Shown here piece by piece: positions 11,805-14,009 of a DNA stretch of 64,000 nucleotides (positions within the stretch are counted from its first letter, which is position 1; each line of letters opens with the position of its first letter). The DNA is taken from positions 166,631-230,630 of the forward strand of contig CAVPWW010000005.1 of the NCBI GenBank assembly GCA_963709675.1. Direction: 5' to 3'. The notes below the pieces were generated by a model. That model made no database searches. It was given only the letters and a program-made list of their open reading frames with translations, and was not told the origin of the DNA. This stretch comes from Candidatus Acidiferrales bacterium. GTDB lineage: Bacteria > Acidobacteriota > Terriglobia > Acidiferrales > UBA7541. The translations under genes and the position numbers were made by a program.

Positions 11805-14009
11805 ATGCCTAATCCTATTTCCGCGCAAGTCTTCCGGTCTCTTGACTGGTTAGTTTGCAAGACGGCGGGTATCACCTTCGATACCATTCAATATTTCAAC
11901 AAGAGCAATCCCAATCCTTCTCCCAAGCCGCAATGGTCCGACAAGCCGCTGCTGAAGTCTTGGGAAAAGTCCAAGCCCACGCTGGGCTTCCCGCGCCAGA
12001 CAGACTCGCTCTGCCCGGCCTGCGTTCAGGAAGCGCGCAAAGCCATTATTGATGGCGAAAAAGATTGGCGCGACCTGATGCACGAGAAGGTTGGCGAAAT
12101 TAAGGCTCAGATCGTCGAGCGCGACGGCCAGGTTTGGATGGTTAAGGACTGCCCGCAGCACGGTCACTACGAAGATCTGATGGCGGTGGACTCCACCTTC
12201 CTGAAATGGATTGAGAGCCAGTTCCCCGGCCGCGATATCCCGGCGCATAACGACGAAGGCCTGCACAAGCACGGCTCCTCGAATGTCCGTTATGGCCGCG
12301 GTTCCGTGCTCACCGTGGACCTCACCAACCGCTGCAACATGATGTGCGATCCCTGCTTTATGGACGCCAATCAGGTTGGCTATGTTCATGAGCTTTCTTG
12401 GGAGGAAATCCAGGAAATTCTTGATAATGCAGTGAAGATCAAGCCGCGCCGCCAGATGTCCGTGCAGTTCAGCGGCGGCGAGCCCACCATGAGCCCGTAT
12501 TTCTTCGATGCCATCCGGTACGCCCGCAAGGTGGGCTACAACTCAGTGCAGGCGGCGACGAACGGAATTGAGTTCGCCAAGAGCAAGGAATTCAGCAAGA
12601 AGGCCTTCGAAGCCGGTCTGCGCTATGCGTACCTGCAATTCGATGGTATCGGCAACGACGCCAACAGCCATCGCCAGATTGGCAACCTCTTTGACGTGAA
12701 GCTACGCGCGATCGAAAACCTGCACGAAGCGGGCATCGAAATCGTGCTCGTGGTAACGATCGTGAATAATGTGAACAACGACCAGGTGGGCTCGGTCGTG
12801 AAGTTCGCGATGGAGAATCCGAAGAAGATTGCTTTCATCAGCTTCCAGCCGGTTTCCTTTACCGGCCGCGACGAGGACATTACTCCCGAGCGCCGTTTGC
12901 GCCAGCGCTACACGCTCTCGCACTTGGCAAAGGACGTGAGCCAGCAGGTTGGCAAGATCGAGCCCACCCGCGACTGGTTCCCGATTTCATTTATCAGCAC
13001 ATTTGCTGGCTTTGCCGATATGGTGAAGGGCAACGAGTCACAGTGGGGCTCGCTCTCCTGTGGCTGCCACCCCAATTGCGGTGTGGGCACGGCGATCATG
13101 ATCAACAAGGAGACCAAGGAATGGGCTCCGGTGCCGCGCTTCCTGGATGCCCAGAAGCTCACCAGAGACGTCACCGCGATTACCGATGCGGCTCGCGGAA
13201 AGAGCTTCTCTAACTTCATGATGGCTATGGCTCTGTTGAAGAACTACCACCCCTTTCAGGGACCCAAGGGCTTGAAGCTCTGGGATTTGTTCAAGAAGTT
13301 TGATAAAACCTGGGCGCTCACCAAGGGCGCGACCAGCAAGTACGGCCGCACTTCTCCGGAACGCACCTACGAAGACGCCATGAAGCGCCGCGCGCAGGAT
13401 CCGTGGAACTTCCTCTTCATCGCGGGGATGTGGTTTCAGGATCTATTCAACTACGACTTCCGCCGCACCGAAATGTGCATCATCCCCTACGGCACGCAGC
13501 AGGGCGAAATCAGCTTCTGCGCGTACAACACCGGCATCGGGTGGCGCAACATCATCGAAAATATGCACAAGAACGCGACCGTTGCCGAATGGTATAAGCA
13601 GCACGGCAAGCACGAGATTTATGCCAAGGGCAAGAACGTTAGCCTGCAGTCTTACGAGCACTCGCTGGTAATTGACGCGGAAGATGCGGCACGCGTTCGC
13701 CACATCGAGCACGATATTCCAGTGACTGCGGCAGAAGAAAACCGCATCCGCCGGAAGAAGGCGCTCGAGGAGCAAGCCAAGGTGCGCGCGATCTACGAAG
13801 AGCTGGTGCTGAAGAAGCCTCAGCAGGCGGTTGTGCAGATCGGCACGATGGGCGACATCGCCAAGGCTGTTCCGGCGAATTTCACCAACGCCGGCAAGCC
13901 AGTCGCAATAGCCCCGGCGAATGGCAACGGCAATGGCCATTCCAATGGGAACGGTGCATCGGCAGCCAAGACTTCCGAACAGGCAGCCGAAGCCGTCGCC
14001 GGCGACTAA
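11805..14009 (+). CDS. Radical SAM protein, Tes/GDGT-MAS (MJ0619-type)-like architecture; candidate membrane-spanning lipid synthase
   Basis: CNMMCDPC (Cys177/181/184, nt 12333-12356). N-terminal SLCPAC...DCPQHGH metal knuckles. Downstream SCGCHPNCG cluster (nt 13059-13079). C-terminal charged helix and an Asn/Gly tail. Confidence 0.85.
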   Translation: MPNPISAQVFRSLDWLVCKTAGITFDTIQYFNKSNPNPSPKPQWSDKPLLKSWEKSKPTLGFPRQTDSLCPACVQEARKAIIDGEKDWRDLMHEKVGEIKAQIVERDGQVWMVKDCPQHGHYEDLMAVDSTFLKWIESQFPGRDIPAHNDEGLHKHGSSNVRYGRGSVLTVDLTNRCNMMCDPCFMDANQVGYVHELSWEEIQEILDNAVKIKPRRQMSVQFSGGEPTMSPYFFDAIRYARKVGYNSVQAATNGIEFAKSKEFSKKAFEAGLRYAYLQFDGIGNDANSHRQIGNLFDVKLRAIENLHEAGIEIVLVVTIVNNVNNDQVGSVVKFAMENPKKIAFISFQPVSFTGRDEDITPERRLRQRYTLSHLAKDVSQQVGKIEPTRDWFPISFISTFAGFADMVKGNESQWGSLSCGCHPNCGVGTAIMINKETKEWAPVPRFLDAQKLTRDVTAITDAARGKSFSNFMMAMALLKNYHPFQGPKGLKLWDLFKKFDKTWALTKGATSKYGRTSPERTYEDAMKRRAQDPWNFLFIAGMWFQDLFNYDFRRTEMCIIPYGTQQGEISFCAYNTGIGWRNIIENMHKNATVAEWYKQHGKHEIYAKGKNVSLQSYEHSLVIDAEDAARVRHIEHDIPVTAAEENRIRRKKALEEQAKVRAIYEELVLKKPQQAVVQIGTMGDIAKAVPANFTNAGKPVAIAPANGNGNGHSNGNGASAAKTSEQAAEAVAGD
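13920..13955 (+). repeat. Short AAY-GGN codon repeat encoding NGNGNGHSNGNG in the radical-SAM protein tail
   Basis: Directly visible: aatggcaacggcaatggccattccaatgggaacggt. Confidence 0.8.

What the first reader, a model, noticed from the sequence alone, without database searches (positions are those of the whole stretch)
11805..14009. Tes/GDGT-MAS-like radical-SAM enzyme in a bacterial (Acidobacteria-like) genome: candidate membrane-spanning lipid synthase
Seen in the sequence: a 734-aa ORF with a canonical radical-SAM CxxxCxxC (CNMMCDPC, nt 12333-12356). It is preceded by two metal knuckles (SLCPAC at 12012-12023; DCPQHGH at 12150-12167). It is followed by a second Cys cluster, SCGCHPNCG (13059-13079). 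Established knowledge, from memory: an N-terminal rubredoxin/zinc-knuckle, a radical-SAM core and an auxiliary cluster is the layout of the archaeal tetraether lipid synthase family (Tes, e.g. MA_1486; GDGT-MAS, MJ0619). Homologues in Acidobacteria have been proposed, but not biochemically proven, as the enzymes that make branched GDGTs and iso-diabolic-acid membrane-spanning lipids. Inference: this gene is such a candidate. It carries an extra C-terminal extension (a charged helix and an NGNGNGHSNGNG tail) that I do not recall in the archaeal enzymes. It is monocistronic, flanked by a long structured leader and a clean terminator, and a FabG-like SDR follows.
Basis: partly seen in the sequence, partly recalled or inferred. 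Interest (0 to 1): 0.7.

Follow-up and report, generated by a model that had tools for sequence, protein, structure and literature searches.

The report
Acidobacterial Tes-like lipid-coupling radical SAM enzyme
This gene encodes a bacterial relative of the archaeal enzyme that joins two lipid tails into one membrane-spanning lipid; it belongs to a highly conserved acidobacterial branch already proposed, but never proven, to make the soil lipids (brGDGTs) used as palaeoclimate thermometers.

Summary
The 734-aa ORF at 11805-14009 (+) and all four Cys motifs are real. Its best HMM match is NCBIfam Tes (322 bits, below the 450-bit equivalog cutoff). Its best solved-structure match, by sequence and by fold, is GDGT-MAS (7TOL/7TOM; TM 0.84 normalised to the target).

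Ligand-by-ligand alignment shows three of the four GDGT-MAS metal sites are kept:
- the rubredoxin-like Cys3His site;
- the radical-SAM cluster;
- the catalytic C-terminal [4Fe-4S] site (C425/C558/C572, plus labile M542 and Y562).

The N-terminal auxiliary [4Fe-4S] cysteines are deleted in this protein and in all 120 close homologues. The clade also has a CxCHxxCG motif, a ~60-aa N-terminal helix and a ~130-aa C-terminal extension. It is a well-supported bacterial clade (bootstrap 97), found in at least 597 GTDB species, with at least 73% core identity across acidobacterial subdivisions.

By length and identity, S. usitatus Acid_2410 and the single E. aggregans homologue look like members. The most likely function is omega-omega coupling of iso-C15 lipid tails (iso-diabolic acid and brGDGT cores). 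That hypothesis was published in 2022 and is still untested.

The parts
11805..14009 (+). Tes/GDGT-MAS-like radical SAM protein, 734 aa (stop codon included)
   Evidence: ORF. NCBIfam Tes 322 bits. PDB 7TOL E 1.5e-61. Fold match 7TOM, TM 0.84.
11805..11987 (+). Clade-specific N-terminal extension (aa 1-61): predicted helix 4-34, then a disordered linker. Absent from archaeal Tes.
   Evidence: Residues before the first knuckle Cys number 69 here, against 7-10 in archaeal Tes. Helix in the model. Strongly conserved in A1. Moderately amphipathic, muH 0.34, with no TM segment.
11988..12185 (+). Rubredoxin-like / zinc-ribbon domain (aa 62-127). Ligands are C70, C73, C116 and H119, a C-X2-C-X42-C-X2-H pattern.
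   Evidence: Pfam PF23545 Zn_ribbon_HMPTM, 6e-15. Aligns with GDGT-MAS C9/C12/C33/H36 and is conserved in both groups.
12225..12302 (+). Loop (aa 141-166) that replaces the N-terminal auxiliary [4Fe-4S] domain. The CxxxCxxC of GDGT-MAS (C73/C77/C80) is deleted.
   Evidence: 119 of 120 archaeal Tes have the three Cys. All 120 homologues of this clade have gaps there. pLDDT is below 50.
12321..12809 (+). Radical SAM core (aa 173-335). Contains the C177-X3-C181-X2-C184 cluster motif at 12333-12356 and the GGEP SAM-binding motif.
   Evidence: Pfam PF04055, 1.2e-18. The motif is invariant in every set examined.
13059..13082 (+). C419-G-C421-H422-P-N-C425-G. C425 aligns with GDGT-MAS C338, a ligand of the catalytic C-terminal cluster. 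C419 and C421 are clade-specific extra cysteines.
   Evidence: C425 is 120/120 in both groups, while C419 and C421 are invariant only in this clade; 79 of 80 GTDB orthologues.
13425..13520 (+). Remainder of the C-terminal [4Fe-4S] site (aa 541-572): M542 (= labile Met439), C558 (= C455), Y562 (= Tyr459) and C572 (= C470).
   Evidence: Alignment. Lloyd 2022 reports Met439 and Tyr459 as completely conserved in archaeal homologues.
13605..14006 (+). Clade-specific C-terminal extension (aa 601-734): charged helix 642-669 and a disordered Asn/Gly/His-rich tail (13920-13955).
   Evidence: No Pfam match. Conserved to about aa 702 among close relatives. The tail varies in more distant orthologues.
14035..14065 (+). 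Intrinsic terminator-like hairpin with a T-run
   Evidence: 13-bp stem, 7 GC pairs.
11555..11660 (+). Conserved non-coding block 145-250 nt upstream of the ATG. It holds three phased CCRTT repeats (~21-nt spacing) and a CAAACT(A)TAG box. Candidate promoter/operator.
   Evidence: Conserved positions across 46 upstream regions that are otherwise unalignable. Direct repeat GCCATTTA spaced 20 nt. Function is inferred only.
10476..11486 (+). Conserved upstream neighbour: a 336-aa protein of unknown function, with conserved N- and C-terminal regions around a P/A/E/S-rich middle. Any link to the Tes-like gene is unproven.
   Evidence: Directly upstream on the same strand, with a median gap of 341 nt, in 39 of 80 related loci. 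No Pfam, NCBIfam or PDB match.

Best explanation
The ORF encodes a radical SAM enzyme of the Tes/GDGT-MAS family. It belongs to a distinct bacterial, mainly acidobacterial, clade.

Proposed mechanism, by analogy with GDGT-MAS:
1. The CX3CX2C [4Fe-4S] cluster reductively cleaves SAM.
2. The 5'-deoxyadenosyl radical abstracts H from the terminal (omega) methyl carbon of a lipid tail held in a hydrophobic tunnel.
3. The substrate radical is parked as a C-S bond on the C-terminal [4Fe-4S] cluster (C425/C558/C572, with labile M542).
4. A second SAM turnover activates the second tail, and the two carbons are joined.

In an acidobacterium the tails would be iso-C15 acyl or alkyl chains of glycerophospholipids. 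The product would be iso-diabolic-acid-based membrane-spanning lipid, meaning tetraester or mixed ether/ester cores that are precursors of brGDGTs.

Shown here: family, fold, conservation of the three retained metal sites, loss of the fourth, clade structure and distribution.
Inferred: the substrate, the product and every chemical step.
For: Homology.
- Tes is the best NCBIfam model (E 4.8e-96).
- GDGT-MAS is the only strong PDB hit by sequence and by fold (TM 0.84 over the whole target, including the lipid-binding C-terminal domain).

Catalytic residues.
- The rubredoxin-like site, the RS cluster, the three conserved C-terminal cluster Cys, Met439 and Tyr459 all align. They are invariant in 120 close homologues and in 79-80 of 80 GTDB orthologues.
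- Lloyd 2022 assigns the C-S intermediate to the C-terminal cluster, which is the cluster retained here.

Purifying selection.
- Core identity is at least 73% across groups labelled gp2, Solibacteraceae, Blastocatellia/Pyrinomonadaceae, gp5 and gp18.
- At least 597 GTDB species carry a relative.
- The window's 90% cluster has 1006 members.

Link to producers.
- S. usitatus, a proven brGDGT producer, has Acid_2410: 714 aa, 30.1% identity, 4e-62 to MA_1486.
- E. aggregans, which makes iso-diabolic acid and brGDGT, has a single homologue at 32% identity and 4e-61.
- Both sets of numbers match this clade (median 30.4% identity, E about 3e-61). They do not match canonical-type bacterial Tes (34-47%, about 1e-115).
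- Acidobacteria lack Mss.

Gene context. In one lineage (L064, L067, L069, L071) the gene sits next to a radical SAM/SPASM gene. Garcia 2024 reports gms-tes clusters in bacteria.
Against: - No experiment exists for any member of this clade. The published support is correlative.
- The score is below the curated Tes cutoff (322 against 450), and one of the four GDGT-MAS cofactor sites is missing.
- Terriglobus roseus is, from my own recollection and not checked here, an aerobic iso-diabolic-acid producer. It has a 624-aa relative (P0267, 42% identity) that lacks all three C-terminal cluster cysteines. I could not test whether it also has a full orthologue.
- Sahonero-Canavesi 2022 found Tes homologues in only 3 of 14 iso-diabolic-acid-producing acidobacteria and proposed a different pathway. 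However, their 30%-identity threshold cuts through this clade: only 63% of pairs reach 30%.
- S. usitatus also carries a canonical-type Tes (Acid_5929), which could be the real coupling enzyme there.
- No lipid-synthesis genes occur in the 64-kb window.
- The lipids of this uncultured lineage are unknown.
Confidence: 0.6

Rival explanations
1. The enzyme is a Tes-family lipid-modifying radical SAM enzyme but catalyses a different tail reaction. Examples are intramolecular macrocyclisation, mid-chain cross-linking, or another C-H functionalisation of membrane lipids. The membrane-spanning coupling itself would be done by a canonical-type Tes paralogue (as Acid_5929 in S. usitatus) or by an unrelated enzyme.
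For: - S. usitatus has both a canonical-type and a clade-type homologue.
- The clade differs from characterised Tes in cofactor complement, carries extra cysteines C419/C421, and has two extensions.
- GDGT-MAS itself makes both macrocyclic archaeol and GDGT.
- Closely related sequences, such as the T. roseus protein, have lost the coupling cluster. The wider clade is therefore functionally plastic.
Against: - All residues tied to the coupling chemistry are invariant.
- By the published numbers, E. aggregans has only this type yet makes membrane-spanning lipids.
- No canonical-type gene is known to be needed in most acidobacteria.
Confidence: 0.2
2. The enzyme acts on a non-lipid substrate. One example is the pterin C-methylation once assigned to MJ0619, which IMG still uses as the name '7,8-dihydro-6-hydroxymethylpterin dimethyltransferase'. 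Another is a TrsS-like reaction.
For: - Many database copies carry the HMPTM name.
- The TrsS model is the second-best NCBIfam hit (218 bits).
- The gene lies among housekeeping genes with no lipid genes nearby.
Against: - Lloyd 2022 could not reproduce the pterin methylase activity and showed that MJ0619 is a lipid synthase.
- The TrsS hit covers only aa 98-384 and is far below its cutoff (218 against 490).
- The fold match covers the whole GDGT-MAS chain, including the lipid-binding C-terminal domain.
Confidence: 0.08
3. The gene is a decaying or non-catalytic relic of a Tes gene.
For: One cofactor site is lost, and a related sequence (T. roseus) has lost another.
Against: - The ORF is intact.
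- Mean column identity is 87% among 29 relatives, and the extensions are conserved too.
- All remaining ligands are invariant in 79-80 of 80 orthologues.
- The clade has very short branches across a phylum.
Confidence: 0.02

Closest known systems
GDGT-MAS / Tes of archaea (MJ0619, PDB 7TOL/7TOM; MA_1486; NCBIfam NF045702)
   Same: - Same overall fold (TM 0.84 normalised to the target).
- Same domain order: zinc ribbon, RS core, C-terminal cluster and lipid domain.
- Same Cys3His mononuclear site, same CX3CX2C motif, and same three C-terminal cluster Cys with Met439 and Tyr459 equivalents.
   Different: - Only about 30% identity, and 322 bits against the 450-bit cutoff.
- The N-terminal [4Fe-4S] cysteines are deleted.
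- Extra features: CxC before the conserved HxxCG, 22 more residues between the knuckles, a ~60-aa N-terminal helix and a ~130-aa C-terminal extension.
- The expected substrate is iso-branched fatty acyl or alkyl chains on sn-glycerol-3-phosphate lipids, not phytanyl diethers (inference).
Canonical-type bacterial Tes homologues (e.g. S. usitatus Acid_5929, K. versatilis homologue; representatives P0303, P0313)
   Same: Bacterial members of the same family, proposed for the same role in brGDGT and iso-diabolic-acid synthesis.
   Different: - They keep all four cofactor sites, are about 500-550 aa long, and pass the Tes cutoff (593 bits for P0303).
- They are 34-47% identical to archaeal Tes.
- The window protein falls in a separate clade with bootstrap 97.
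Acid_2410 of Candidatus Solibacter usitatus (Q025C7) and the single Tes homologue of Edaphobacter aggregans
   Same: Length (714 aa), identity (30-32%) and E-value (about 1e-61 to 1e-62) to MA_1486 match this clade. They are probably orthologues, in cultured producers of membrane-spanning lipids.
   Different: I could not obtain their sequences, so orthology is inferred from published numbers only.
Mss, the bacterial membrane-spanning lipid synthase of Thermotoga and Thermoanaerobacter
   Same: A radical SAM enzyme that couples two fatty-acid tails. This is the same kind of product as proposed here.
   Different: Described as only remotely related to Tes, found in anaerobes, and not detected in acidobacterial genomes.
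Terriglobus roseus WP_014786616.1 type (P0267) and relatives P0280, P0311
   Same: The nearest sister group: 42% identity, also without the N-terminal cluster, and sharing the GMWFQDLFNY motif.
   Different: They lack the three C-terminal cluster cysteines, the Tyr, and most of the C-terminal extension. They are unlikely to use the same C-S intermediate chemistry.

Membership tests
Tes / GDGT-MAS (NCBIfam NF045702 equivalog) | Whole-protein HMM score at or above the curated cutoff (450 bits) | tested here: not met
   322.3 bits, E 4.8e-96, aa 65-589. MJ0619 scores 744 and canonical-type bacterial representatives score 584-593.
Tes / GDGT-MAS | Radical SAM CX3CX2C cluster motif in a partial TIM barrel | tested here: met
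   C177/C181/C184. Pfam PF04055. Invariant.
Tes / GDGT-MAS | N-terminal rubredoxin-like mononuclear site C-X2-C...C-X2-H | tested here: met
   C70/C73/C116/H119 align with C9/C12/C33/H36. Pfam PF23545.
Tes / GDGT-MAS | N-terminal auxiliary [4Fe-4S] cluster (C73/C77/C80 plus His in MJ0619) | tested here: not met
   The three Cys are deleted in the window protein and in all 120 close homologues, but present in 119 of 120 archaeal Tes. A representative that passes the Tes cutoff, and whose 90%-identity cluster is labelled Parcubacteria, also lacks them (P0349). The feature may therefore not be essential.
Tes / GDGT-MAS | C-terminal [4Fe-4S] cluster with three Cys, labile Met439 and conserved Tyr459 | tested here: met
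   C425/C558/C572, M542 and Y562 align and are invariant. Ligand identity for the three Cys is inferred from invariance, because the paper text does not number them.
Tes / GDGT-MAS | Overall fold, including the C-terminal lipid-binding domain | tested here: met
   Foldseek top hits 7TOM/7TOL: E 4.6e-35, TM 0.84 normalised to the target, 563 aligned columns. The model has pTM 0.74 and mean pLDDT 68.5.
Tes / GDGT-MAS | Catalyses Csp3-Csp3 coupling of two lipid tail termini | not testable with these tools
   Needs genetics or biochemistry.
Mss (bacterial membrane-spanning lipid synthase) | Sequence homology to the Thermotoga or Thermoanaerobacter Mss | not tested
   No Mss sequence or model was available. 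The literature reports no Mss homologues in acidobacteria.
TrsS radical SAM (seleno)protein (NF045646) | HMM score at or above 490 bits over the full length | tested here: not met
   218 bits, covering only aa 98-384.
SPASM/twitch peptide or cofactor maturases | Best match to a SPASM-family model or structure | tested here: not met
   The best SPASM-type models score 36-82 bits. SkfB and anSME structures match at E 1e-5 to 1e-8 and only over the RS core.

The most novel reading that the evidence does not exclude
This clade lacks the N-terminal cluster and carries two extensions. The novel reading is that it, rather than the canonical Tes type or Mss, is the long-sought acidobacterial iso-diabolic-acid / brGDGT-core synthase. 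It would work on ester-linked iso-C15 phospholipids in largely aerobic soil bacteria. Loss of the surface-exposed N-terminal cluster, together with the gain of the CxC motif and the terminal extensions, would be the adaptation to that setting. The 30%-identity thresholds used in published surveys would then have under-counted the clade and led to the conclusion that acidobacteria use an unrelated pathway.
Probability: 0.4. Interest if true: 0.75.

Novelty: new variant of a known kind. Interest (0 to 1): 0.45.

Why it matters
brGDGTs are among the most widely used terrestrial palaeotemperature and pH proxies. Even so, the enzyme that builds their membrane-spanning C30 backbone in Acidobacteria has never been identified experimentally.

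This gene belongs to the most widespread and most conserved acidobacterial branch of the only enzyme family known to perform that chemistry in archaea. The window itself adds one more orthologue, from an uncultured Acidoferrales / subdivision-2-type lineage, so it is not a discovery.

The analysis does sharpen what should be tested:
- The clade is separable from canonical Tes.
- It should hold two [4Fe-4S] clusters plus one mononuclear iron, not three clusters.
- Common homology thresholds miss part of it.
- It has cultured representatives (Acid_2410, and the E. aggregans gene) in which a knockout is feasible.
- A cluster-less sister form in Terriglobus roseus needs explaining.

Tried and rejected
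- Riboswitch or structured leader. There was no Rfam hit at E up to 1 in 11300-14300, and the fold z-score was +0.79. Rejected.
- Sigma-70 promoter scan. None was found.
- Functional linkage to the FabG-like SDR. A homologue lies near the gene in only 12 of 80 related loci. Only the closest relatives have a >=60%-identical copy on the downstream side, and the weaker matches are about 30% identical and scattered on either side. Rejected as a conserved partnership.
- Lipid genes elsewhere in the window (Ger/PlsA, ElbD, Grs-like, other radical SAM). None was found among the ORFs scanned.
- Intein-containing versions, proposed to explain the 3.2-kb matches in L057, L064, L065 and L071. In L064 the extra length is an adjacent radical SAM/SPASM gene, also found beside the Tes-like gene in L067, L069 and L071; L057 and L065 were not resolved beyond showing normal-length ORFs of 679-733 aa.
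- C18 as a ligand of a replacement cluster together with C419 and C421. C18 is Thr, Ala or Ser in 25 of 80 orthologues.
- Finding cultured species that carry the clade.
  - Three homologue searches and three cluster look-ups returned MAG names for members of this clade; the only cultured name was for the sister-group protein P0267, Terriglobus roseus.
  - The supplements of Zeng 2022 and Sahonero-Canavesi 2022 held nothing usable.
  - Halamka's Table S5 did help.
- Exact look-up of the window protein in the contig index. Not on record.
- Annotating the upstream 336-aa protein and the two extensions by Pfam, NCBIfam or PDB. No matches.
- The first NJ bootstrap script timed out. It was redone with a faster distance routine.
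Full report
**1. Observation**

The window holds an ATG-initiated ORF at 11805..14009 (+) of 734 aa. CNMMCDPC lies exactly at the stated coordinates, and the others are within 3-6 nt.

The protein has 12 cysteines: C18; C70/C73/C116; C177/C181/C184; C419/C421/C425; and C558/C572.

A strong terminator-like hairpin follows at 14035-14065. A FabG-like SDR gene follows at 14106-14837.

Two peripheral claims did not hold:
- The 315-nt upstream region is not more structured than shuffled sequence (z = +0.79) and matches no Rfam family.
- 'Monocistronic' cannot be asserted. A same-strand gene ends 318 nt upstream, and no terminator-like site was found between the two genes.

**2. Family and fold**

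| Test | Result |
|---|---|
| Pfam | Zn_ribbon_HMPTM (aa 62-127) and Radical_SAM (aa 173-335) |
| NCBIfam, best model | 'tetraether lipid synthase Tes', E 4.8e-96, 322 bits, aa 65-589; equivalog cutoff is 450 |
| NCBIfam, second model | TrsS, 218 bits, N-terminal half only |
| PDB by sequence | GDGT-MAS (7TOL) E 1.5e-61; everything else at or above 1e-7 |
| AlphaFold2 model (86-sequence alignment) | pTM 0.74, mean pLDDT 68.5, core mostly above 80 |
| Foldseek against PDB | 7TOM/7TOL first, E 4.6e-35, TM 0.84 normalised to the target, 563 aligned columns; next is MoaA at 1e-8 |

**3. Cofactor sites, residue by residue**

Lloyd et al. 2022 describe four cofactors in GDGT-MAS:
- a rubredoxin-like iron (C9-X2-C12-X20-C33-X2-H36);
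- an N-terminal [4Fe-4S] cluster (C73, C77, C80 and a His);
- the RS cluster;
- a C-terminal [4Fe-4S] cluster with labile Met439. This is the cluster proposed to carry the C-S intermediate. Met439 and Tyr459 are fully conserved in archaeal homologues.

I recovered full-length MJ0619 (P0136) and 119 other archaeal Tes. I aligned them with the window protein and its 120 closest homologues.

| GDGT-MAS site | Window protein | Conservation |
|---|---|---|
| C9/C12/C33/H36 | C70/C73/C116/H119 | conserved in both groups |
| RS cluster | C177/C181/C184 | invariant |
| C338/M439/C455/Y459/C470 | C425/M542/C558/Y562/C572 | invariant in both groups |
| C73/C77/C80 | deleted | present in 119 of 120 archaeal Tes; deleted in 120 of 120 homologues of this clade |

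The replacing loop (aa 141-166) is low-confidence in the model. C419 and C421, which give CxCHxxCG, are invariant only in this clade.

The same pattern holds in 79-80 of 80 orthologues from GTDB genomes. C18, however, is not conserved outside the closest groups.

Only C425 aligns with a conserved GDGT-MAS cysteine. The other two cluster cysteines lie 130-150 residues downstream.

**4. Extensions**

- Archaeal Tes have a median length of 493 aa; this clade has 727 aa.
- The clade has about 60 extra N-terminal residues. They form a predicted helix at 4-34 (moderately amphipathic, muH 0.34) followed by a disordered linker.
- It also has 119-152 residues beyond the end of the archaeal enzyme, including a charged helix at 642-669 and a disordered Asn/Gly/His-rich tail.
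- Both extensions are conserved among relatives and match no Pfam family.
- No transmembrane segment is predicted. That is consistent with a peripheral enzyme, as GDGT-MAS is.

**5. Clade structure**

A full HMMER scan of 1.84 billion representatives found 589 clusters at E up to 1e-30. Full-length representatives fall into three groups:
- A canonical type with all four sites, 34-58% identity to MJ0619, and 584-744 bits on the Tes model.
- The type found here, together with P0256 and P0265.
- Forms lacking the C-terminal cluster cysteines (P0267, P0280, P0311).

In a neighbour-joining tree (467 columns, 100 bootstraps):
- The acidobacterial orthologues form a tight clade (support 97).
- P0256 is sister to that clade (94).
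- The whole group lacking the N-terminal cluster is monophyletic (97) and separate from canonical bacterial and archaeal Tes.

**6. Distribution and organism**

- The exact protein is in public data on a 308-kb contig. Its 90% cluster has 1006 members, with names such as Candidatus Acidiferrum/Acidoferrum.
- The best 80 are MAGs. Most are labelled Acidoferrales, 'gp2', Terriglobia, Solibacteraceae, Blastocatellia, Pyrinomonadaceae, Chloracidobacterium, gp5 or gp18. A few carry unlikely labels.
- Core identity (aa 62-600) stays at or above 73% across all groups.

**7. Neighbourhood**

- The window carries housekeeping genes (RelA/SpoT, RidA, MetAP, peptidases, CstA, glycolysis, Kdp) and no recognisable lipid-synthesis genes.
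- Across the 80 loci, the SDR is found in 12; only the closest relatives have a >=60%-identical copy on the downstream side.
- The only widely kept neighbour is the upstream 336-aa protein of unknown function. It lies on the same strand with a ~341-nt gap in 39 loci.
- The intergenic region contains a conserved block at 11555-11660. It has three phased CCRTT repeats and a CAAACT(A)TAG box. This is probably a promoter/operator.

**8. Literature**

- Zeng et al. 2022 reported 456 bacterial Tes homologues and proposed them as brGDGT enzymes. They cite E. aggregans (one homologue, 32% identity, 4e-61), K. versatilis (42%) and S. usitatus (40%).
- Halamka et al. 2022, Table S5, lists two S. usitatus homologues: Acid_5929 (545 aa, 40.2%, 1e-139) and Acid_2410 (714 aa, 30.1%, 4e-62).
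- I measured this clade against 120 archaeal Tes. Median identity is 30.4% (5th-95th percentile 28.6-32.3) and E is about 3e-61. Canonical-type representatives give 34-47% and about 1e-115.
- Acid_2410 and the E. aggregans protein therefore fit this clade. This is an inference from published numbers, not from their sequences.
- Only 63% of the clade-versus-archaeal pairs reach 30% identity. The thresholds of at least 30% identity and E up to 1e-50 used by Sahonero-Canavesi et al. 2022 would therefore detect the clade erratically. Those authors found Tes homologues in 3 of 14 iso-diabolic-acid-producing acidobacteria, found no Mss, and concluded that an alternative pathway exists.
- As of 2025-2026 the function of bacterial Tes homologues is still described as not experimentally confirmed. 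Only culture-level correlations are cited for Koribacter and Solibacter.

**9. A complication**

The representative P0267 is Terriglobus roseus DSM 18391 WP_014786616.1. It is 624 aa, 42% identical to the window protein, and lacks the equivalents of C425, C558, C572 and Y562.

From my own recollection, not checked here, T. roseus is an aerobic subdivision-1 species reported to produce iso-diabolic acid. I could not test whether it also has a full orthologue.

If it does not, one of two things follows. Either iso-diabolic acid can be made without the C-terminal cluster chemistry, or this family is not the synthase in subdivision 1.

**10. Verdict**

This is a Tes/GDGT-MAS-like radical SAM enzyme and a candidate membrane-spanning lipid synthase.

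It is not a discovery. The family, including a 714-aa member in S. usitatus, and the hypothesis have been in the literature since 2022. IMG already labels some copies 'tetraether lipid synthase'.

What the analysis adds:
- The acidobacterial ~715-740-aa proteins form a separable, very conserved clade.
- That clade has three rather than four metal sites, two extra cysteines and two terminal extensions.
- It falls below NCBI's Tes cutoff and sits across commonly used identity thresholds.

I put 0.6 on omega-omega coupling of iso-C15 lipid tails as the function. I put 0.2 on a different lipid-tail reaction. The remainder goes to non-lipid functions or loss of function.

Noticed in passing
window 10476-11486 (+): A 336-aa protein with no Pfam, NCBIfam or PDB match. 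Its N-terminal ~85 aa and C-terminal ~110 aa are conserved around a P/A/E/S-rich disordered middle. It lies directly upstream of the Tes-like gene on the same strand in 39 of 80 related loci, which makes it the only widely conserved neighbour.
   Followed up: partly
window 11555-11660: A conserved non-coding block 145-250 nt upstream of the ATG. It has three CCRTT repeats about 21 nt apart and a CAAACT(A)TAG box, conserved across 46 otherwise unalignable upstream regions. It looks like a promoter/operator for an unknown regulator.
   Followed up: partly
P0267 (Terriglobus roseus DSM 18391, WP_014786616.1): A 624-aa sister-group protein, 42% identical to the window protein. It keeps the zinc ribbon, the RS cluster and the GMWFQDLFNY motif, but has lost all three C-terminal cluster cysteines and the conserved Tyr. 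P0280 and P0311 are similar. Its function is unknown.
   Followed up: partly
L064 7740-8990; also L067, L069, L071: In one lineage (MAGs labelled Gemmatimonadota) a 416-aa radical SAM/SPASM-like gene sits immediately upstream of the Tes-like gene. This recalls the bacterial gms-tes clusters reported by Garcia et al. 2024. No specific NCBIfam family was assigned.
   Followed up: partly
window 13920-13955; L064 7740-7900 and 9050-9130: Asn/Gly/His-rich low-complexity stretches (NGNGH-like) recur in three places: the C-terminus of the window protein, the N-terminus of the L064 Tes-like protein, and its radical SAM neighbour. Their meaning is unknown.
   Followed up: no
P0349 and its cluster (P0553-P0555; members labelled Parcubacteria or Minisyncoccales): A 510-aa protein that passes the Tes equivalog cutoff (584 bits) but lacks the N-terminal cluster cysteines; other members of its 90%-identity cluster are labelled as CPR bacteria. 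If the labels are right, loss of that cluster may be compatible with a Tes-like function, and a Tes gene would occur in CPR genomes.
   Followed up: no
L004, L013, L034, L054, L057, L064, L079 and others: Orthologues 68-88% identical to the window protein sit in MAGs labelled Udaeobacter, Verrucomicrobiia, Saccharimonadales, Acidimicrobiia, Xenobia, Gemmatimonadota or Eisenbacteria. These are most likely mislabelled or mis-binned acidobacterial contigs, but lateral transfer was not excluded.
   Followed up: no
window 22360-22872 and 22869-24422 (+): The 517-aa CstA ORF matches only positions 139-560 of the Pfam CstA profile. A 170-aa ORF overlaps its start by 4 nt. This may be a split or frameshifted cstA, or a sequencing error.
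   Followed up: no
window 17155-17805 (-) and 40456-41157 (-): Two Pyridox_ox_2 (PNPOx-like, FMN-binding) paralogues occur in the window. The first is often found a few kb downstream of the Tes-like gene in related loci (15-17 of 80, depending on the method).
   Followed up: no
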